A DNA stretch of 62,611 nt from an uncultured Candidatus Saccharibacteria bacterium (lineage in GTDB: Bacteria; Patescibacteriota; Minisyncoccia; UBA6257; UBA11618), in assembly GCA_964362125.1 (NCBI GenBank), contig CAYICS010000004.1, forward strand, positions 1 to 62,611, given 5' to 3'. Both the position numbers and the translations under genes were made by a program. The notes beneath the pieces were generated by a model. It made no database searches. It was not told where the DNA came from and was given only the letters and a program-made list of their open reading frames with translations. Positions within the stretch are counted from its first letter, which is position 1. Every line of letters starts with the position of its first letter. Shown piece by piece: positions 23,619 through 44,481 of the stretch.

Positions 23619-23723
23619 ATGGAAAAGTTATTGGAACTTCAAGACATCCATGTTCACTACGGCGGCGTTCGGGCCTTAGACGGCGCCAGTGTTTATCTGG
23701 ACGAGGGCGAGGTGGTTTGTTAA
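23619..23723 (+). pseudogene. Truncated, synonymously diverged copy of the livF 5' end
   Basis: First 33 aa identical to LivF (25062), then C and stop. Confidence 0.85.
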
Positions 23724-25061: not shown

Positions 25062-25775
25062 ATGGAGAAACTTTTAGAGCTTCAAGATATTCACGTTCAC
25101 TACGGCGGTGTTCGGGCTTTAGACGGCGCCAGTGTTTATTTAGATGAAGGTGAGGTGGTGGCCTTGATGGGGCCTAATGGCGCCGGCAAGTCCACCATCC
25201 TCAAGACAATCTTTGGCTTGGCGCCGATTCATTCGGGAAAGGTATTGTGGCATGGCAAGCCGATCAAGCCAGTGTCCCATGAGGTGGTGGCCCGCGGCAT
25301 TGCTTTTGTCCCTCAAGGCCGGCGCGTTTTCACCAGCTTGACTGTTGAAGAAAATTTGGAGATCGGCGGCTATACTGTGCCAGACAAAAAAGAAGTGCGG
25401 CGGCGCATTGAGGAAGTGATGGAGATTTTCTTAGCGCTCAAAGCCAAGCGCCACGCTAAATCTGGCACGCTCTCGGGCGGCCAGCAACAGCAATTGGCCA
25501 TTGCCCGCGGCCTGATGACTGATCCCAAAGTTCTCCTGTTAGACGAACCAACCCTTGGTCTTGCCCCGAAGATCATCAAAGAAGTTTTTGAGACCATTAA
25601 AGAAATTAACCAGCGGCATAAAACATCTATTATGGTAGTGGAGCATAACATTAAATCATTGCTTAATTTTGTTAATCGCGCCTATGTCCTCAACCGCGGC
25701 CAAGTGGCCACTGAAGGATCACCTAAAGAGATTTTGGAAAGCGACATTTTAGAAAAAGTCTTTTTAGGGCAATAG
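25062..25775 (+). CDS. livF: LIV ABC ATPase LivF
   Basis: GPNGAGKS, VPQGRRVF, LSGGQQQQLAIARGLM, LLDEPTLGLAP. Confidence 0.93.
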   Translation: MEKLLELQDIHVHYGGVRALDGASVYLDEGEVVALMGPNGAGKSTILKTIFGLAPIHSGKVLWHGKPIKPVSHEVVARGIAFVPQGRRVFTSLTVEENLEIGGYTVPDKKEVRRRIEEVMEIFLALKAKRHAKSGTLSGGQQQQLAIARGLMTDPKVLLLDEPTLGLAPKIIKEVFETIKEINQRHKTSIMVVEHNIKSLLNFVNRAYVLNRGQVATEGSPKEILESDILEKVFLGQ

Positions 25776-27403: not shown

Positions 27404-27407
27404 CAGA

Positions 27408-27508
27408 GTATCGATGCTAATATACGAATGAATGCGAATGATACGAATAGGAATACGGATTCGCAACCCCATTCGTAGATTCGCAAATTCGTAGATTCGC
27501 ATCGAAGC
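27408..27508. repeat. ~100-bp GTATCGATGC...GCATCGA palindromic element, copy 1
   Basis: ACGAAT/ATTCGT arrays; homologous copies at 42517, 47228, 49982, 51054, 58899. Confidence 0.9.
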
Positions 27509-27517
27509 CCAAAACCT

Positions 27518-29623
27518 ATGCCCCGTCAATATCCTATTGAAAAAGTTCGCGACATCGGCATCATTGCCCACATTGATGCTGGTAAAACCACAGTTACCGA
27601 GCGGGTGCTTTTTTACACCGGCGTTTCCCATAAAATTGGCGAAGTCCATGAAGGGACAACGGTGATGGATTGGATGGAGCAGGAAAGGGAGCGCGGCATC
27701 ACCATTACTGCTGCTGCCACAACGGCTTTCTGGATGCCGACTTACGCCAATGGTGATAAAGCTTTTGAGCATCAGATTAATATCATTGATACCCCGGGCC
27801 ACATTGATTTTACGGTTGAAGTAAAACGATCTTTACGCGTGCTGGATGGGGCGGTGGTTGTTTTTGATGGCGTCGCCGGTGTTGAACCCCAATCAGAAAC
27901 CAACTGGCATTATGCTGATGATTACAAAGTGCCGCGCATTTGTTTTATCAATAAACTCGACCGCACCGGCGCCAATTGGGAGAATAGTTTAAAGGCGATT
28001 CAAGAACGGCTTAATCCTCAGGCCGCGCCTATTCAAATTCCTATTGGTCTCGAATCCAATTTCGAGGGCGTGATTGATCTTTTGCGAATGAAAGCTTATT
28101 ACTTCGAGGGTGAAAAAGGCGAGCGGGTTGTGGAAAAAGAAATTCCGAAAAATCTTCTGGAGGAAGCCGAAAAGCGGCGGCGGCAGCTGGTGGAAAAAAT
28201 TGCCGAACAGGATGACGAGCTGCTTCATAAATTTTTAGAACATCAGGAGATTTCGCTGGAGGATTTAAAACGTGTCTTGCGCAAAGCCTGCATTGAAGTG
28301 AAATTAATTCCGGTGTTGACCGGCGCCGCCTTAAAAAACAAGGGAGTGCAGCTGGTTTTGGACGCGGTGGTTGATTATTTGCCGTCGCCGGTTGATTTGC
28401 CGTCCATCAAAGGTATTAATCTGAAAACCGACGCTGAAGAGATCCGTTTGGCGGCTGATGACCAGCCATTGGCGGCTTTGGCTTTTAAAATCGCCGCCGA
28501 CCCCTTTGTCGGTTCGTTGACTTTCTTCCGGGTTTATTCCGGCACTCTCAAGCGCAGCACCTATATTTTGAATTCTACCAAAAACTCACAAGAACGAGTG
28601 GGGCGGATTGTTCGTCTTCACGCCAATCACCGCGAGGAGGTGAATGAGATTTACGCCGGTGAAATCGGCGGCTTGGTGGGAATGAAAGATACCAGCACCG
28701 GCGACACTTTATCTGATCCCGATCATCCCATCTTGCTGGAGAAAATAATTTTCCCCGAGCCGGTGATCTCTATGCGTATTTCTCCCAACACCAAAGCCGA
28801 TCAGGAAAAAATGGGCATTGCCCTGCGCCGTTTGTCAGAGGAAGACCCGACTTTCCGGGTGAGCGGCGATCAGGAGACAGGCGAGACGATTATTTCCGGA
28901 ATGGGGGAGTTGCATTTGGAAATTATCGTGGACCGGATGAAGCGGGAGTTTACCGTTGAAGCTAAGACCGGCCGGCCGCAGGTGGCTTATAAAGAAACAG
29001 TGACGGCTCTGGCTGAAGCTGAAGGTAAATATATTCGCCAGACCGGCGGTCGGGGGCAATATGGTCATGTCTGGCTGAAAGTAGAGCCGCGGGAGCGGGG
29101 AGCGGGTTTTGAATTTGTTGATGCTATTAAAGGCGGCGCCATTCCTAAAGAATTTATTCCGGCAGTGGAGAAAGGCGTGAAGGAGGCGATTGATAAAGGT
29201 GTAGTGGCTCATTATCCGATGGTGGATTTGCAGGCAACTCTTTACGATGGTTCTTACCACGAAGTTGACTCTTCGGAGATTGCTTTTAAAATCGCCGGCT
29301 CGATGGCTTTTCAGGAAGCGGCTAAGCGGGCCCGGCCAGTGATGCTGGAACCAATTATGAAAATTCAGGTGATTATGCCCACGGAATTTTTGGGAGATGT
29401 AACCGGGGATTTGTCAGCCAAGCGCGCCAAAATTGAAGCGATGAACGATCGTTTTAACATCAAAATGATAGATGCTAAAGTGCCGCTGTCCGAGATGTTT
29501 GGCTATGCCACCTCATTGCGTTCCATGACTCAGGGCCGGGGCTCATTCACGATGGAGTTTTCTCACTACGAGGAAGTTCCGAACAATATCGCGCAGTTAA
29601 TAATTGAGGGGAAAAGGAAGTAA
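27518..29623 (+). CDS. fusA: Elongation factor G
   Basis: [26 protein letters not shown]; 701 aa. Confidence 0.99.
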
Positions 29624-29685
29624 TGATTATTCCTAAATAAAAATATAAATTTTGTTATTTATTACATCTCTTAATTTGTTAATTT

Positions 29686-29793
29686 GTTACATCCCTTATT
29701 CGTACGAATAAGGGATGTAACGTCTGGGTGAAAGTAAGGCGCCAGGAAGAAATCAGGAAGACGTCAGGAAAAATTCAGGAAAATTTCAGGGGT
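29686..29793. promoter_or_regulatory. Perfect 36-bp palindrome plus five CAGG motifs at 11-bp spacing upstream of the ArsR gene
   Basis: Palindrome 29686-29721; CAGG at 29743, 29754, 29765, 29776, 29787. Confidence 0.55.
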
Positions 29794-29812
29794 TTGTGTT
29801 ATTATTTAATTT

Positions 29813-30073
29813 ATGAGGGAGATTGAGAGAAGTTTGAAGGCCTTGGCCAATCGGCGGCGGTTGTCGATTGTTAAGTATTTGAAACAGAATAGAGAAGCGC
29901 CGGTGGCGGATGTTGCCGCAGCGATCAATCTTTCTTTCAAGGCGACCTCAAAGCATCTGGCTTTGCTTTCGGCGGCGGATATTGTTGATAAGGAACAGCG
30001 GAGTGTCCAGGTTTTCTATCGCTTGTCAGATAATTTAAGGTCGCCGGTTAAACATATAATTTCACTACTCTAA
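29813..30073 (+). CDS. ArsR/SmtB-family transcriptional regulator
   Basis: KALANRRRLSIV...wHTH SKHL..L...V.YRL. Confidence 0.9.
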   Translation: MREIERSLKALANRRRLSIVKYLKQNREAPVADVAAAINLSFKATSKHLALLSAADIVDKEQRSVQVFYRLSDNLRSPVKHIISLL

Positions 30074-30096
30074 TTCGAGCGAATTAGGGATATAAT
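30070..30096 (+). promoter_or_regulatory. Candidate ArsR operator (CTAATTCG-AG-CGAATTAG) adjacent to the msrB -10
   Basis: 8-2-8 inverted repeat at 30070-30087, TATAAT at 30091-30096. Confidence 0.55.
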
Positions 30097-30107
30097 AAAC
30101 TGAGAGA

Positions 30108-30551
30108 ATGAAACCAGTTAATAACGAATATTGGCGTAAGAAATTAACCCCGGAGCAGTATCGAGTTCTGCGGGGAAAGGGGACGGAGCCGGCTTTTTCT
30201 GGAAAATATTATAAGACCAAAGACAAAGGTGTTTATAGATGCGTCGCCTGCGGGGCTGGATTGTTTTCTTCAGATGCCAAGTTTGATTCCGGCACCGGCT
30301 GGCCCAGTTTTACTGAATCGATGAACAGAGAAAATGTAGAATTGCGCCAAGACCAAAGTCAGGGAATGATTAGAACAGAGGTTTCGTGCAAAAACTGTGG
30401 CTCGCATTTGGGTCACGTCTTTGACGATGACCCCACTCCAACCGGTAAAAGATTTTGTATAAACTCCTGCGCGCTGGATTTTGGTAGAAATTCTTTTATA
30501 AAAGGATTGAATGATTGTAGCCAGTTGATTATTGAAGGAAAGAGAAAATGA
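30108..30551 (+). CDS. msrB: Peptide methionine sulfoxide reductase MsrB, with an EF-G-derived C-terminal tail
   Basis: [36 protein letters not shown]. Confidence 0.95.
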
Positions 30552-30868
30552 TCTCCCACGAGGATTTTCTAAAATTAGACCTGCGCGTTGGGAAGGTTTT
30601 GAAAGCGGAGCGGGTAGAGGAATCAAAGAAAATGCTTCGCTTGGAGGTGGATTTAGGCGATGAAAGACGGCAGGTGGTGGCGGGTGTGGGTCTGGTTTAT
30701 AATCCAGAAGATCTAGTTGGTCGGCAGATTATAGTTTTAGTTAATCTTGAGCCGAAAGTTTTTGTTGGCGTAGAAAGTCAAGGGATGCTGTTGGCGGCTG
30801 ACACCGTTGGTGGCCCGGTGATTTTGTTGCCAGAGAAAGAAGTACCGCCGGGAACAAAGATCAAATAG
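30548..30868 (+). CDS. tRNA-binding OB-fold protein (Trbp111/CsaA/MetRS C-terminal domain family)
   Basis: [27 protein letters not shown]. Confidence 0.9.
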
Positions 30869-30960
30869 TAGATGTTTGGGGGTTTCACCCCCAAACATTG
30901 GGAATCCCACTTCCTTCTTGCCTTTGATCACGTCTGGAGTATTATTATTAGTTTAATCAT

Positions 30961-32232
30961 ATGGATAATCCGGATAATCAGCCGCGGGCTTTAGATCGCC
31001 GTGTCATTATCAAACTCTCCATCGTTTTCGCCTTTATTTACTTTTTCTCCACCAATGGCTTGGCTTCATTGCCGGGGATTACGGTTAGTTTTCTTCTTAA
31101 AGACGTTTTGAAGATGACAGCCACCGCCGCCAGCTACTTCGGCGCAGTCACTATTTTCGGCTGGGCCATTAAGCCGCTCTGGGGAATTATTTCTGATACC
31201 CTCCCGATTTTTGGCTATCGGCGCAAGTCTTATTTGATTCTCACGGCTATTCTGGCCGCTATCATCTGGTTTTATCTTGGTCAGGTTGAAAACTACACTA
31301 TCCGCCTGCTTTTAATTTTCTTCACCCTCTCTTCTTTTGCTTATGCCTTTATGGATGTCATCTGCGACGCCTTAATGGTGGAGAAAGGCAAACCGCACAA
31401 TCTCACCGGCCGGTTTCAGTCAGTGCAGTGGACATCGGTTTATATTGCCTCCATCATCAGCGCTTTGGCCGGGGGCTGGGTGGCGGAAAATTTAAAGCCG
31501 CAGACGGTTTTTTCCATCAATGGCGTTTTCCCTTTGATTATTCTGGGTTCGATCCTCCTTTTTATTAAAGAAGAGCGGCTGGTGGAGCCGAGAAGCGAAC
31601 GCCTGCGGAAAAGTTGGGGAGCCTTGAAGCAGGTTTTTCTCCAGCCGACATTCTGGCTGCTGGGCTTCTTTCTTTTCTTTTGGACTTTTAGTCCGTCGTT
31701 TGGCACACCCTTTTTCTATTATTCTGTGGACACTTTGAAGTTTGACCCATTCTTTTTAGGAATTGTCGGAGCGGTTGCTTCGGCCACCGCGGCTCTGGGC
31801 GCTATTCTATATTCCCGCTCTTATGAAAAAATTAATACCCGTTCTTTAGTGCGGCTGATGATTCTGGTCGGCATCTTCGCCACCCTTTTTGATTTTGTTT
31901 ATTTCCTGCCGGCGGTGGTGGAGAATCCGATGCTGGCTCGGGTTATTTATATGGGTTCAGCTGGGATTTTGGGAATTATCGGCGCCATTACTTTTTTGGT
32001 GATGATGAATTCGGCGGCTTTGGCTGTTCCTCAATACGGGGAGGGAACGGCTTTTGCTTTACTGGCTTCTTTCTGGAATATTGGCCTGATGAGTTCTGCC
32101 GCTATCGGCGGTTATCTTTTTAGCAAGATCGGTCTTCAGCCGCTGATTTTAGTTTCAGCTGTCTTCACCGCCGCCGCCTGGTTTATTCTGCCATTTATGA
32201 AATTTGCTGATGAATCAAGAGCAACTAATTAA
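30961..32232 (+). CDS. MFS transporter, BT1/folate-biopterin-like
   Basis: About 12 TM; WAIKPLWGIISD..PIFGYRRKSY, DVICDALMVE. Confidence 0.85.
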   Translation: MDNPDNQPRALDRRVIIKLSIVFAFIYFFSTNGLASLPGITVSFLLKDVLKMTATAASYFGAVTIFGWAIKPLWGIISDTLPIFGYRRKSYLILTAILAAIIWFYLGQVENYTIRLLLIFFTLSSFAYAFMDVICDALMVEKGKPHNLTGRFQSVQWTSVYIASIISALAGGWVAENLKPQTVFSINGVFPLIILGSILLFIKEERLVEPRSERLRKSWGALKQVFLQPTFWLLGFFLFFWTFSPSFGTPFFYYSVDTLKFDPFFLGIVGAVASATAALGAILYSRSYEKINTRSLVRLMILVGIFATLFDFVYFLPAVVENPMLARVIYMGSAGILGIIGAITFLVMMNSAALAVPQYGEGTAFALLASFWNIGLMSSAAIGGYLFSKIGLQPLILVSAVFTAAAWFILPFMKFADESRATN

Positions 32233-32854
32233 AGATTTAATTGACGACGGCTATCTGCGGACACCGCGGCTGATTGAAGCTTTTAGAAAAGTTGATCGCA
32301 AAGATTTTGTACCGGAGGAGATCAAGGATTTAGCTTATATCAATGAAGCCCTGCCCATTGGCTATGGCCAGACAATTTCCCAGCCGCTGACTGTGGCTTT
32401 TATGCTGGAGCGATTACAGCCCCAGCCGGGAGAGAAAATCTTGGATATCGGGACAGGGTCGGGGTGGGCAACAGCTCTCCTGGCTTACGTGGTAAGCCAA
32501 GAGGTTGAAAGTTTAAAGTTTAAAGTTAAAAATTTAGGAAAAGTTATTTCGATAGAGACCATAGCGGAACTTCATCAACTGGCGAAAAAAAATCTGGCGA
32601 AGTTTAAAGATTTAAATATTGAACTGATTTTAGGCGACGGCGCTGATGGTTATCAGCCGGAAGCCCCTTACGATAAGATTATTTCCGGAGCGGCGGCGGC
32701 TGAGGTGCCAGTGGCGTGGAAACAACAGCTTAAAATCGGCGGCCGCCTGCTCACCCCGCTGCGAACCAATGTTTTATTGCAAATAGATAAGATTGCCGAA
32801 GATAAATTTGAAGAAAAAGAATATCCGGGATTTGTCTTTGTGCCGCTTGTATAA
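32210..32854 (+). CDS. pcm: Protein-L-isoaspartate O-methyltransferase
   Basis: YINEALPIGYGQTISQP, LDIGTGSGW, APYDKI. Confidence 0.93.
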   Translation: MNQEQLIKDLIDDGYLRTPRLIEAFRKVDRKDFVPEEIKDLAYINEALPIGYGQTISQPLTVAFMLERLQPQPGEKILDIGTGSGWATALLAYVVSQEVESLKFKVKNLGKVISIETIAELHQLAKKNLAKFKDLNIELILGDGADGYQPEAPYDKIISGAAAAEVPVAWKQQLKIGGRLLTPLRTNVLLQIDKIAEDKFEEKEYPGFVFVPLV

Positions 32855-33020: not shown

Positions 33021-33593
33021 TTACGCTTGAGCTTCCCGTTGCATCTGTTGATGGGCGATTGCTCGCTCCACCATCGGCACCAGGTCGCCCTTGGCGAAAA
33101 GGACTTTTTGGAGGTTGTTGTTCCAGATCTGATACCCACATTGCTTTGCTCCCCTGGCAAAGGATTCGACGAAAACTACCAGGGAGTTCATGGTGAGGAC
33201 ATTTTCAGCCTCGCCAAGACTCTCCTTGAGCACAACCATCCCATGACCGACCGCTCTCAGTAGAGGCTCGACCTTTTCCGGTCTGACCTCAAGGTGAAAA
33301 CAGGGCCTCGACGCTCCCTTCTGAGCAATGTCAATCAGGTTTCTTACCCCATTCAGTTCCTGCCTTTCCTTGAGTTCAGCCTTCAGCTGATCCTTGTTCA
33401 TGTTAGGATCCCGCTGGCCAACCTCGATTTGGTAGTCCAGGAGCTCGAGGACTGGGGCAATGACCTTCAGGAGTCGCCCCAGCATCAGAGGATCAACTTC
33501 GACGTTGATCGCCCTCTTGATCGTCCCACCGGCCAGAATAAAGCTCGCCGAAAACCGATGCAGATGCTCAGCCACTTCCTCGATTCGGGACAT
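33021..33593 (-). CDS. Hypothetical protein
   Basis: 190-aa ORF with an RBS (GGAGG) and a divergent promoter; no motif recognised. Confidence 0.6.
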   Translation of the reverse strand: MSRIEEVAEHLHRFSASFILAGGTIKRAINVEVDPLMLGRLLKVIAPVLELLDYQIEVGQRDPNMNKDQLKAELKERQELNGVRNLIDIAQKGASRPCFHLEVRPEKVEPLLRAVGHGMVVLKESLGEAENVLTMNSLVVFVESFARGAKQCGYQIWNNNLQKVLFAKGDLVPMVERAIAHQQMQREAQA

Positions 33594-33752: not shown

Positions 33753-34952
33753 ATGGCAGAAAAAGCTAAATTTGAAAGAACCAAGCCCCACGTCAACGTG
33801 GGCACTATTGGTCACGTTGACCATGGTAAATCTACCCTCACTGCCGCCATCACCCATGTCTTGAAAATGAAGGGGTTGACTGGCAAGGAGGTGACTGTCG
33901 ATGAATTAGATAAAAGCCCTGAAGAAAAAGCCCGGGGTATTACCATTTCTATTCATCATTCGGAATACGAGTCGGAGAAGCGTCACTACGCCCACATCGA
34001 TGCCCCCGGTCATGCTGACTACATCAAAAACATGATTACCGGCGCCGCCCAGATGGATGGCGCGGTCTTGGTGGTTTCCGCCACTGATGGGCCAATGCCC
34101 CAAACCCGCGAGCATATTCTCTTGGCTCGTCAGGTGGGCGTGCCGGCGATCGTTGTTTTCTTAAATAAAGTTGATCAGGTGACTGATCCGGAGTTGGTTG
34201 ATTTAGTGGAGTCTGAAGTCCGTGAACTCTTAAAGAAATATGAATTTCCCGGCGATCAAACGCCGGTGATTCGTGGTTCTGGTTTAAAGGCCTTGGAAGC
34301 TAAATCATTGGATGATCCGGCAGTTAAACCCATTCTTGATTTGGTTGAGGCTTTAGACAACTACATCCCGGAGCCGGTGCGGGAGATTGACAAGCCCTTC
34401 CTGATGCCGATTGAAGATATTTTCTCAATCGAGGGTCGGGGAACAGTGGTTACCGGCCGGGTAGAGAGGGGTGTTGTCAAAGTCAACGAAGAAATTGAAA
34501 TTGTCGGTTTGCGGCCAACAGCTAAGACTGTAGTCACTGGCGTGGAAATGTTTAACAAATTATTGGATGAGGGCCGGGCCGGCGATAACATCGGGGTTTT
34601 ACTGCGGGGCACCAAAAAAGAAGAGGTGGAGAGGGGGCAAGTCCTGGCCAAGCCGGGCACGGTCAACCCTCACACCGAATTTGAGGCCGAAGTTTACGTC
34701 TTAAGCAAAGAAGAAGGCGGTCGGCACACTCCTTTCTTTAAGGGCTACAAACCCCAGTTTTATATGCGGACTACTGACGTTACCGGTGAAGTAGAAATGC
34801 CGGCTGGCACTGAGATGGTTATGCCCGGTGATACTGTTTCCATTAAAATTAAACTGATTGCTCCGGTGGCGCTGGAAGAGAAACAGCGTTTTGCTATCAG
34901 GGAGGGCGGCAAGACTGTGGGAGCGGGCGTCGTGACTAAAATTATTACTTAA
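33753..34952 (+). CDS. tuf: Elongation factor Tu
   Basis: [29 protein letters not shown]. Confidence 0.99.
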
Positions 34953-42608: not shown

Positions 42609-42890
42609 ATGATTAATAAGTTTATTGTTAAAAATCCTCTAATCACTGAAAAAGCCACGGCTGAAGGGCCGCTGGGCAAGTATACTTTTTTGGTGGAGAA
42701 AAAAGCCAACAAGCCCGAGGTGAAAAAAGCGGTGGAGGCGATTTATAAGGTGAAGGTGACTCAAGTCAATATCGTTAATGCCAGACCCAAGAGCCGCCGT
42801 CTTGGCCGCACTACCGGCGTCAAACCCGGCTACAAAAAAGCCATCGTCACTCTGGCGGCTGGACAGAAGTTAGATATTTTGCCGCAATAG
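42609..42890 (+). CDS. rplW: 50S ribosomal protein L23
   Basis: PLITEKA, YTFLV...ANKPEVKKAVE, KKAIVTL. Confidence 0.98.
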   Translation: MINKFIVKNPLITEKATAEGPLGKYTFLVEKKANKPEVKKAVEAIYKVKVTQVNIVNARPKSRRLGRTTGVKPGYKKAIVTLAAGQKLDILPQ

Positions 42891-44411: not shown

Positions 44412-44481
44412 CAAATCCGGCTACAAAAAAGCCATTGTCACTCTGGCGGCTGGACAGAAGTTAGACATCTTGCCCCAATAA
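44412..44481 (+). pseudogene. Diverged duplicate of the last 70 bp of rplW
   Basis: 64/70 identical to 42821-42890. Confidence 0.9.

What the first reader, a model, noticed from the sequence alone, without database searches (positions are those of the whole stretch)
29594..30551. MsrB ends in a synonymously recoded copy of the EF-G C-terminus: cargo inserted into the fusA 3' end
Seen: fusA ends QLIIEGKRK* (29594-29623) and msrB ends with the same QLIIEGKRK* (30522-30551). Seven of the 9 sense codons and the stop differ synonymously. The second copy overlaps the next gene by ATGA. Inference: fusA was originally coupled to the tRNA-binding gene. An arsR-msrB block arrived carrying a relative's fusA end, and the displaced host end was captured in frame by msrB. 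This fits homology-facilitated illegitimate recombination during natural transformation, or an integration system that supplies a recoded gene end.
Basis: partly seen in the sequence, partly recalled or inferred. Interest (0 to 1): 0.72.

Follow-up and report, generated by a model that had tools for sequence, protein, structure and literature searches.

The report
EF-G tail relic fused onto MsrB
The last nine codons of a methionine-sulfoxide reductase gene in this ultra-small groundwater bacterium are a leftover copy of the end of the neighbouring elongation-factor G gene, most likely a scar from DNA of a related lineage being spliced in next to fusA, and similar scars sit at two other genes in the same 62 kb.

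Summary
fusA (27518-29623) and msrB (30108-30551) both end QLIIEGKRK*. Seven of nine codons plus the stop differ, all silently. The msrB stop overlaps the tRNA-binding gene start (ATGA).

It is not chance. The motif occurs only at these two places in the 618-kb genome, and otherwise only at EF-G ends. None of the 120 best MsrB homologues carries the tail.

Best reading: a recombination scar in the hypervariable fusA-tuf interval of a CPR genome. One relative (L142) has fusA followed by the tRNA-binding gene without arsR-msrB. The sister genome (L141+L146) has msrB in the interval, plus its own independent fusA-end relic beside a Y1-transposase element. The relic carries the codon version of the relatives' fusA ends (2 nt off); the working fusA end is 5 nt off. 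Phylogenetic signal in fusA shifts near nt 1140, and the 3' part groups firmly with the msrB-bearing lineage.

No donor with fusA-arsR-msrB, no integrase and no short 3'-terminal breakpoint were found. All relatives are too diverged to fix the polarity.

This is a new member of a known kind: a homology-facilitated illegitimate recombination scar, analogous to icd/icdC at prophage e14.

The parts
27518..29623 (+). fusA (EF-G, 701 aa), intact
   Evidence: Pfam GTP_EFTU, EF-G_D2, EFG_III, EFG_IV and EFG_C. Identical protein on 4 contigs from replicate samples.
28657..28657 (+). approximate position (fusA nt ~1140) where the phylogenetic signal switches from L142-like to L141-like; candidate homologous crossover
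   Evidence: Max chi-square 17.5, permutation p 0.0025. Trees: 5' part (win,L142) 90/95, 3' part (win,L141) 100/99. AU test p 0.0004 and 0.12.
29594..29623 (+). copy 1: working fusA end, QLIIEGKRK*, 5 silent changes away from the consensus of the relatives
29623..29640 (+). ATGATTATTCCTAAATAA, a 5-codon ORF overlapping the fusA stop (TAATG); 13 of its first 15 nt match the start of the gene that follows msrB in L146
   Evidence: Weak evidence; it may be a relic of another gene start.
29686..29721 (.). perfect 36-nt palindrome (16-bp stem), unique in the genome; possible ArsR operator or fusA terminator
29743..29790 (+). 4.4 tandem copies of an 11-nt unit (CAGGAAAAATT) just upstream of arsR
29813..30073 (+). 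arsR-family HTH regulator (86 aa); absent from the sister genome's interval
   Evidence: Pfam HTH_5. Best relatives (up to 67%) are in other CPR classes, and none sits next to fusA or msrB.
30108..30506 (+). msrB proper (SelR domain, residues 13-125; native C-terminus about ..NSFIKG)
   Evidence: Pfam SelR, 8e-51. Alignment with the nearest orthologue P0001/L146.
30507..30521 (+). junction codons LNDCS, homologous neither to MsrB ends nor clearly to EF-G
30522..30551 (+). copy 2: fusA-end relic read in frame as the MsrB tail QLIIEGKRK*; it supplies the msrB stop and the ATGA overlap with the next gene
   Evidence: 2 nt from the L141/L142/G006 fusA ends. (fusA contigs of other organisms align to this copy rather than to copy 1).
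30548..30868 (+). tRNA-binding-domain gene (Trbp111/CsaA-like, 106 aa)
   Evidence: Pfam tRNA_bind, 1.7e-28. It follows fusA in L142 and in genus g8.
30873..30897 (.). REP-like palindrome TGTTTGGGGGnnnnnCCCCCAAACA, one of 13 copies in the genome
30961..34952 (+). rest of the fusA-tuf interval: BT1 transporter (30961-32232), PCMT (32204-32854), hypothetical 190 aa on the minus strand (33021-33593), then tuf (33753-34952)

Best explanation
The nine-codon tail of msrB is a relic of a fusA 3' end. It was left when two differently arranged versions of the variable fusA-tuf interval from related CPR lineages were joined.

The most economical reading involves one patch of about 2.9 kb, roughly 28657-30521. 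It comprises the 3' part of fusA with its own end, a spacer, arsR and msrB. The patch came from a lineage that keeps msrB behind fusA. It entered a lineage in which fusA was directly followed by the tRNA-binding gene.

The left join was a homologous crossover inside fusA. The right join was illegitimate and landed 27-30 nt before the resident fusA stop. The resident end was therefore not deleted. It was pushed downstream, where msrB now reads into it in frame.

Today the relic supplies the msrB stop codon and keeps the old ATGA-coupled start region of the tRNA-binding gene. The 14 extra residues on MsrB (five junction residues plus the nine relic residues) are probably inert.

Shown: the duplication, its EF-G origin, its absence from other MsrBs, the two alternative arrangements in relatives, the codon affinities, and a shift of phylogenetic signal in fusA. 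Inferred: the direction of transfer, the single-patch model, uptake by natural transformation, and the present role in translational coupling.
For: 1. The tail is an EF-G end and not an MsrB feature.

2. The changes are silent only: 8:0 here. Two further gene-end or gene-start duplicates in the same window show 5:1 (rplW) and 17:0 (livF), which I verified. Pooled P is 9e-6 if the relic had drifted neutrally. Both copies therefore evolved as working coding sequence in separate lineages.

3. The relic is 2 nt from the fusA ends of L141, L142 and G006, which agree with each other. The working end is 5 nt away. Reads and contigs of other organisms jump from 29505 to 30522.

4. L142 has fusA, a 257-nt spacer and then the same tRNA-binding gene (86.5% nt identity over 126 nt) without arsR-msrB. 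Genus g8 of the same family also has fusA followed by that gene.

5. L141+L146 has fusA ... msrB ... BT1-PCMT-tuf.

6. fusA is mosaic. The 5' 1140 nt favour (window,L142), 143:78 sites, support 90/95. The 3' 966 nt favour (window,L141), 91:69 sites, support 100/99. AU rejects the alternative for the 3' part at p 0.0004.

7. An independent second fusA-end relic (MEFS../ALIIEGKKK*) lies beside a Y1-transposase element in L146. The fusA-tuf spacer differs in nearly every genus of the family.

8. ComEC and DprA are present. Natural competence has been shown experimentally for cultivated Saccharibacteria (PMC10633639).
Against: - No donor arrangement fusA-arsR-msrB was found in 60 relatives, 80 metagenomic loci or 24 ArsR loci.
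- All relatives are near saturation at silent sites (pS 0.43-0.8). Neither donor nor recipient can be named.
- The AU test does not reject (window,L141) for the 5' part of fusA (p 0.12), and rpsG is uninformative. The mosaic could be an older, unrelated exchange.
- No short terminal breakpoint is detectable.
- In L142 fusA and the tRNA-binding gene are not ATGA-coupled, and the gene is broken after 42 codons.
- msrB diverges from the L146 copy (pS 0.66) no less than the flanking genes do, so the patch cannot be delimited.
- The adjacency of L141 and L146 rests on a 141-nt (k-mer length) overlap inside a possibly repeated element.
Confidence: 0.55

Rival explanations
1. Same kind of scar, opposite polarity. 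msrB and the present fusA end are resident. A fragment from a lineage with fusA directly followed by the tRNA-binding gene (its fusA tail, that gene, and perhaps part of BT1) was spliced in behind msrB. The homologous crossover was on the right (BT1 or beyond) and the illegitimate join on the left. It replaced the genes that follow msrB in the sister genome (hyp200 and an HTH gene).
For: - msrB lies in the interval in the sister genome too.
- There msrB is ATGA-coupled to a different gene at the equivalent position.
- The working fusA end is about as far from the relatives (5 of 27 nt) as the gene is overall (17-19%).
- The relic is L142-like, and L142 carries the tRNA-binding gene behind fusA.
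Against: - It needs a second, separate event to explain the L142-like 5' part versus the L141-like 3' part of fusA.
- No breakpoint is visible in BT1 against L146, although only one comparator exists.
Confidence: 0.25
2. In-situ duplication of the resident fusA end, for example a long target duplication or slippage when arsR-msrB was inserted. The working copy then drifted silently. The relic was held constant at the nucleotide level because it is the ribosome-loading region of the coupled tRNA-binding gene.
For: - The relic ends in the ATGA overlap and contains a purine-rich GAAGGAAAGAGAAA stretch just before the ATG.
- L141, L142 and G006 share an almost invariant 27-nt end despite about 50% silent divergence elsewhere. 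That hints at nucleotide-level constraint on this stretch.
Against: - Five silent changes in about 8 silent sites of the working copy imply a long time. A relic with only 2 changes, both silent, would then need constraint on all 27 nt.
- For fusA alone P is 0.02. Pooled with the two sister cases in the window it is 9e-6.
- The rplW relic is not coupled to any gene start, so this cannot be the general explanation.
- In L142 the same gene is preceded by an unrelated AT-rich sequence.
Confidence: 0.1
3. Remnant of a site-specific integrative element that targets the fusA 3' end and carries its own, recoded replacement end, as e14 and phage 21 do at icd. The recombinase gene has since been lost.
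For: - The layout is the same as icd ... e14 ... icdC (PMC13626634).
- A second fusA-end relic in the sister genome sits directly beside a Y1 (IS200/RAYT-like) gene with terminal palindromes.
- The window's spacer has a perfect palindrome.
- fusA ends appear to be a repeatedly used site.
Against: - There is no recombinase or transposase between the copies or anywhere in the fusA-tuf interval.
- There is no shared att-like core; the longest identical run is about 5-6 nt.
- The palindrome is unique in the genome.
- The three Y1 genes of this genome are 48-56% diverged paralogues flanked only by their own REP repeats, with no duplicated gene ends.
- The cargo is two small housekeeping-type genes.
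Confidence: 0.07
4. Coincidence, convergence or mis-assembly.
For: None beyond the shortness of the repeat (9 codons).
Against: - Nine of nine identical residues with an EF-G-specific motif, found nowhere else in 618 kb.
- Three independent assemblies plus contigs from another study.
- The two copies share only 22 of 30 nt, so an assembler could not have collapsed or joined through them.
Confidence: 0.01

Closest known systems
Homology-facilitated illegitimate recombination (HFIR) during natural transformation. It is described for three naturally competent species and for E. coli conjugation (PMC3240628), and is used by Acinetobacter baylyi to take up foreign cassettes (PMC3410848). The original Acinetobacter, S. 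pneumoniae and P. stutzeri papers are recalled from my own knowledge.
   Same: Cargo without its own recombinase. One end is anchored by homologous recombination in a conserved gene and the other joined illegitimately. The donor is a diverged relative. The genome has ComEC and DprA, and CPR competence has been shown experimentally (PMC10633639).
   Different: The process is inferred here from a natural scar and was not observed. The illegitimate join lies upstream of the end of the homologous tract, so 27-30 nt of the resident gene end were duplicated rather than deleted. The donor sequence is unknown, so microhomology at the junction cannot be read.
e14 / phage 21 integration into icd of E. 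coli K-12, leaving the icdC pseudogene (Hill, Gray and Brody 1989, PMC210168; PMC13626634)
   Same: Inserted DNA brings an alternative, largely silently different 3' end that keeps a core gene intact. The original end survives as a relic on the far side of the insert.
   Different: e14 uses an integrase and a defined att site, is 15 kb long and is excisable. Here there is no recombinase, no att core and a 0.9-kb cargo, and the relic has become the in-frame tail of the last cargo gene.
Flexible genomic islets between conserved core genes, exchanged by recombination in the flanks
   Same: The fusA-tuf spacer holds different genes in almost every genus of the family. In this clade they are protein-repair and stress genes (MsrB and PCMT; SOD in L170).
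   Different: Ordinary islet replacement by two homologous crossovers leaves no duplicated gene end.
C-terminal displacement in Rhs/CDI toxin loci (orphan toxin tips left downstream); recalled from my own knowledge
   Same: A new gene end arrives by recombination, and the old one is pushed downstream and persists.
   Different: Those systems diversify the displaced end as a toxin. Here both ends encode the same peptide, and the displaced one has no known activity.

Membership tests
HFIR-type recombination scar | Homologous crossover (anchor) inside a conserved gene on one side of the cargo | tested here: inconclusive
   The signal shifts at fusA nt ~1140 (p 0.0025). The 3' part groups with L141 at 100/99 and AU p 0.0004. 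The 5' topology is not decisive (AU p 0.12). All relatives are near silent-site saturation.
HFIR-type recombination scar | Illegitimate junction on the other side, typically at a few bases of microhomology | not testable with these tools
   The junction lies at about 30507-30522. The donor sequence is unknown, so microhomology cannot be scored.
HFIR-type recombination scar | The two copies of the duplicated gene end come from different lineages (silent-only divergence) | tested here: met
   8 silent to 0 replacement differences here. 30:1 when pooled with the rplW and livF duplicates of the same window, P 9e-6. The relic matches the relatives' version.
HFIR-type recombination scar | No recombinase or transposase carried by the cargo | tested here: met
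   Only arsR and msrB lie between the copies. There is no recombinase Pfam hit anywhere between fusA and tuf.
HFIR-type recombination scar | Host able to take up and process DNA | tested here: inconclusive
   ComEC (PF03772, 133 bits) and DprA (PF02481, 258 bits) are present. Both are widespread, including in bacteria not known to be competent, so this shows capacity and not activity.
Integrase-mediated element in a gene 3' end (e14/icd type) | Site-specific recombinase encoded in the insert | tested here: not met
Integrase-mediated element in a gene 3' end (e14/icd type) | Identical att core flanking the insert | tested here: not met
   22 of 30 nt are identical, spread codon by codon, with no run longer than about 6 nt.
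Integrase-mediated element in a gene 3' end (e14/icd type) | Replacement gene end on one side and a relic of the native end on the other | tested here: met
IS200/IS605 or RAYT/REP-associated insertion | Y1 transposase and/or its terminal palindromes bounding the insert | tested here: not met
   There is no Y1 gene in the interval. The 36-nt palindrome at 29686-29721 is unique in the genome. Y1 paralogues elsewhere show no gene-end duplication. In L141/L146 a Y1 element does sit next to the other relic.
MsrB (SelR, PF01641) | SelR domain with the catalytic Cys in the ..RFCINS.. motif and two CxxC zinc motifs | tested here: met
   Pfam 8e-51 over residues 13-125. CVAC, CKNC and FCINS are visible in the sequence. 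The tail lies outside the domain.

The most novel reading that the evidence does not exclude
Duplicated ends of highly conserved genes may be the regular footprint of how these streamlined, competent CPR bacteria gain cargo. DNA taken up from diverged relatives would be anchored by one crossover in a conserved gene (fusA, rplW, livF) and closed illegitimately. Conserved translation genes would then act as portable homology arms for recombinase-free cassettes. Displaced gene ends would be recycled as stop and start signals, or even as protein tails, for the newcomers. Three such scars in one 62-kb window and an independent fusA-end relic in the sister genome would then be a measurable natural record of transformation in uncultivated bacteria.
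Probability: 0.3. Interest if true: 0.7.

Novelty: new member of a known kind. Interest (0 to 1): 0.5.

Why it matters
The case gives a datable, sequence-level footprint of recombination between diverged lineages inside the str operon of a CPR bacterium. For this group, gene flow has mostly been inferred from gene content. It also shows how an insertion next to an essential gene can be tolerated: the essential end is supplied anew, and the old end keeps the downstream gene's translational coupling. If the pattern is general, counting such relics would measure how often, and between how distant lineages, natural transformation reshapes uncultivated genomes. On its own, the msrB tail is a small evolutionary scar with no demonstrated function.

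Tried and rejected
- Chance or artefact: rejected.
- The tail as a normal MsrB feature: rejected.
- Donor search. Nothing with fusA-arsR-msrB turned up in 60 relatives' fusA loci, 12 family genomes with 6 kb downstream of fusA, 80 metagenomic loci of the tRNA-binding gene, 24 ArsR loci or the BT1 neighbourhoods.
- Homology between the spacers of the window, L142 and L146: none.
- Rfam families in the spacers: only meaningless microRNA-model hits.
- A short imported tract at the extreme 3' end of fusA: not significant.
- Delimiting the patch by silent-site divergence per gene: failed because everything is near saturation.
- Classing fusA ends into two 'types' that link the window's working end to the L146 relic (shared ATA and AAG TAA codons, followed by TGATTATT): the counts do not support it (5 of 27 differences either way), so I dropped it.
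- A 7-nt direct repeat AATGATT at both ends of the insert: noted, but within chance for AT-rich DNA.
- The order-wide search with the 34-aa EF-G end: it confirmed the motif's conservation, but the listing was cut before the second matches per genome, so it says nothing about further relics.
Full report
**Observation**

fusA (27518-29623) ends cag tta ata att gag ggg aaa agg aag taa. msrB (30108-30551) ends cag ttg att att gaa gga aag aga aaa tga. Both encode QLIIEGKRK*. Seven of the nine sense codons and the stop differ, always silently. The msrB stop overlaps the ATG of a 106-aa tRNA_bind (PF01588) gene at 30548.

Pfam confirms the gene identities:
- EF-G, all five domains
- an ArsR-type HTH protein, 86 aa
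- MsrB, with the SelR domain on residues 13-125 of 147
- the tRNA-binding protein
- a BT1/MFS transporter

**Not chance, not an artefact**

A six-frame scan for the EF-G end motif finds only these two places in the organism's 618-kb genome. In about 710 kb of related loci it finds only genuine EF-G ends, the msrB tail, and one further relic described below.

EF-G proteins throughout the order end ..(N)IAQLIIEGK(K/R)K*. None of the 120 best MsrB homologues out of 8000 scored covers the tail. The nearest (77% identity) ends ..ALDLEKNKRIKQ*, so the window's MsrB carries about 14 extra residues: LNDCS plus the nine-residue relic.

The arrangement was assembled independently from three replicate samples. 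Identical short contigs covering both junctions occur in runs of another study. The copies share only 22 of 30 nt, so no assembler could have joined through them.

**Setting**

The genome is a 0.62-Mb CPR/Patescibacteria MAG from groundwater. The order of genes is: rpsL-rpsG-fusA | arsR-msrB-tRNA_bind-BT1-PCMT-(hyp190, minus strand) | tuf-rpsJ.

About 4.1 kb of protein-repair and transport genes therefore sit inside the classical str operon. No recombinase lies among them.

In the same family the fusA-tuf spacer ranges from about 150 nt to about 5 kb and holds different genes in nearly every genus. Genus g8 has fusA followed by the tRNA-binding gene.

**Close relatives**

Only two lineages closer than 90% in EF-G exist in the databases.

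*L142.* It comes from the same aquifer well and is 92% identical to the window's EF-G over the C-terminal 282 residues searched. It has fusA, a 257-nt unrelated spacer, and then the same tRNA-binding gene (109 of 126 nt identical). There is no arsR or msrB. The gene is broken after 42 codons and the contig ends soon after.

*L141.* It is 95% identical over the same region. It has rpsL-rpsG-fusA followed by a Y1-transposase (IS200/RAYT-like) gene flanked by palindromes. Its last 141 nt, the assembler's k-mer length, are identical to the first 141 nt of L146.

*L146.* It continues with a second, degenerate fusA end: ATGGAGTTCAG/CG TTG ATA ATT GAA GGG AAG AAA AAG TAA, reading MEFS.. / ALIIEGKKK*. 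Next come a structured spacer, msrB without a tail (ATGA-coupled to an unrelated 200-aa gene), an HTH gene, BT1 (88% aa identity), PCMT, a homologue of the 190-aa gene, and tuf.

So msrB belongs to this interval in the sister lineage too. That lineage carries its own, independent fusA-end relic at a different position.

**Which codon version do relatives carry?**

L141, L142 and G006 share cag ttg att att gag ggg aa(g/a) aga aaa, even though about half of all silent sites differ between them elsewhere. The msrB tail is 2 nt from this version. The working fusA end is 5 nt from it.

Contigs of other organisms laid on the window jump from 29505 (or 29379) to 30522. Their fusA ends match the relic better than the working end.

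**Silent-only divergence**

About 18-24% of random single changes in these sequences would be silent. The observed ratio here is 8:0.

Notes from earlier agents pointed to two more cases in this window, which I checked myself:
- The last 23 codons of rplW (42822-42890) recur at 44413-44481 on the far side of a 1.5-kb insert (64 of 70 nt identical; 5 silent, 1 replacement).
- The first 33 codons of livF (25062-25160) recur at 23619-23717 (17 differences, all silent).

Pooled, 30 silent to 1 replacement has P = 9e-6 if half the changes had fallen on a neutrally drifting relic. For fusA alone P is 0.02.

In each case the two copies therefore diverged while both were working coding sequence, that is, in different lineages. 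They were then brought together by recombination. This argues against in-situ duplication followed by drift.

**Mosaic test of fusA**

Among sites where two of the three close sequences agree:

| fusA region | window + L142 | window + L141 |
|---|---|---|
| nt 1-1140 | 143 | 78 |
| nt 1141-2106 | 69 | 91 |

The maximum chi-square is 17.5 with permutation p 0.0025.

ML trees with seven outgroups give (window,L142) at 90/95 for the 5' part and (window,L141) at 100/99 for the 3' part. The AU test rejects (window,L142) for the 3' part (p 0.0004). It does not reject (window,L141) for the 5' part (p 0.12).

The remaining tests give little:
- rpsG is uninformative (29/28/23 sites).
- No separate short terminal breakpoint is detectable (p about 0.2).
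- All pairwise silent divergences are 0.43-0.8, so the transferred tract cannot be delimited gene by gene.

**Synthesis**

The simplest account is one patch: fusA from about nt 1140 to its end, the spacer, arsR and msrB. It comes from a lineage of the 'msrB-behind-fusA' type and sits inside a backbone of the 'tRNA-binding-gene-behind-fusA' type.

The left boundary is a homologous crossover in fusA. The right boundary is an illegitimate join 27-30 nt before the resident stop. That one event explains three things at once: the fusA mosaic, the cargo, and a relic with the backbone lineage's codons. The genome has ComEC and DprA, and natural competence has been shown for cultivated Saccharibacteria (PMC10633639).

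I give this 0.55. The mirror-image event (relic plus tRNA-binding gene imported behind a resident msrB) fits most data and gets 0.25. Together, 'recombination scar between diverged alleles' stands at about 0.8. In-situ duplication with nucleotide-level constraint gets 0.1, a decayed integrative element 0.07, and chance or artefact 0.01.

**Present function (inferred)**

The relic gives msrB its stop. It also preserves the purine-rich stretch and ATGA overlap in front of the tRNA-binding gene, which is now coupled to msrB instead of fusA. The 14-residue extension lies outside the SelR domain and is probably neutral. No expression data were available.

**Comparison with known systems**

The layout is that of icd ... 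e14 ... icdC in E. coli K-12 (PMC13626634; Hill et al. 1989, PMC210168), but without an integrase or att core. Mechanistically it is closest to HFIR.

It is a new natural example of a known kind. The unusual details are the in-frame capture of the relic by the last cargo gene, the location inside the str operon, and the clustering of three such scars in 62 kb plus a fourth in the sister genome.

Noticed in passing
window 42822-42890 and 44413-44481: The last 23 codons of rplW (L23) are duplicated on the far side of a ~1.5-kb insert that holds a 398-aa HExxH-like protein. The second copy lies upstream of rplB. 64 of 70 nt are identical, with 5 silent changes and 1 replacement (P to S). The signature matches the fusA case.
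   Followed up: partly
window 23619-23717 and 25062-25160: The first 33 codons of livF occur twice, with 17 nt differences that are all silent. Each copy follows a RelE/ParE-type toxin-antitoxin pair.
   Followed up: partly
L146:143-183 (sister genome, ENA ERZ27245926 k141_572836), with L141:5624-6431: An independent fusA-end relic (MEFS.. / ALIIEGKKK*, with an internal deletion of about 30 nt) lies directly next to a 232-aa Y1-transposase gene. That gene is flanked by three copies of the palindrome TTAACGATGTT(G/C)AACATCGTTAA. An intact fusA lies on the other side.
   Followed up: partly
window 30873-30897; genome C3:41041-41881 and 10 other sites: A REP-like palindrome, TGTTTGGGGGnnnnnCCCCCAAACA, has 13 copies in the genome. 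Three of them flank one of three diverged Y1 (RAYT-like) genes. One copy sits just after the tRNA-binding gene.
   Followed up: partly
window 27404-27517: The rpsG-fusA spacer is 114 nt long and made of repeated (A)TTCGTAGATTCGCA / CGAATG-type units. In L141 and L142, rpsG and fusA overlap (TAATG). This is another small insertion inside the str operon.
   Followed up: no
window 29686-29721 and 29743-29790: A perfect 36-nt palindrome and 4.4 tandem copies of an 11-nt unit lie between fusA and arsR. They may be an ArsR operator and promoter architecture. The spacer folds better than shuffled controls (z -3.0).
   Followed up: partly
L142:2809-2941: The tRNA-binding gene of the L142 lineage diverges abruptly after codon 42 into unrelated sequence. 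This is either another insertion or a pseudogene. The contig ends 130 nt later.
   Followed up: no
L033 and L035 (G046, G048), fusA ends: In two other families fusA ends ..EGKK* with AAATGA overlapping the start of a different downstream gene (MNTFDKIK..). ATGA coupling at the fusA stop therefore recurs with different partners.
   Followed up: no
L170 (Logan SRR25547261 contig): A more distant relative groups BT1, a methyltransferase, MsrB, pterin-4a dehydratase, a CMAS-like methyltransferase and Fe/Mn superoxide dismutase upstream of the same 191-aa gene. The interval upstream of tuf looks like a stress and protein-repair islet.
   Followed up: no
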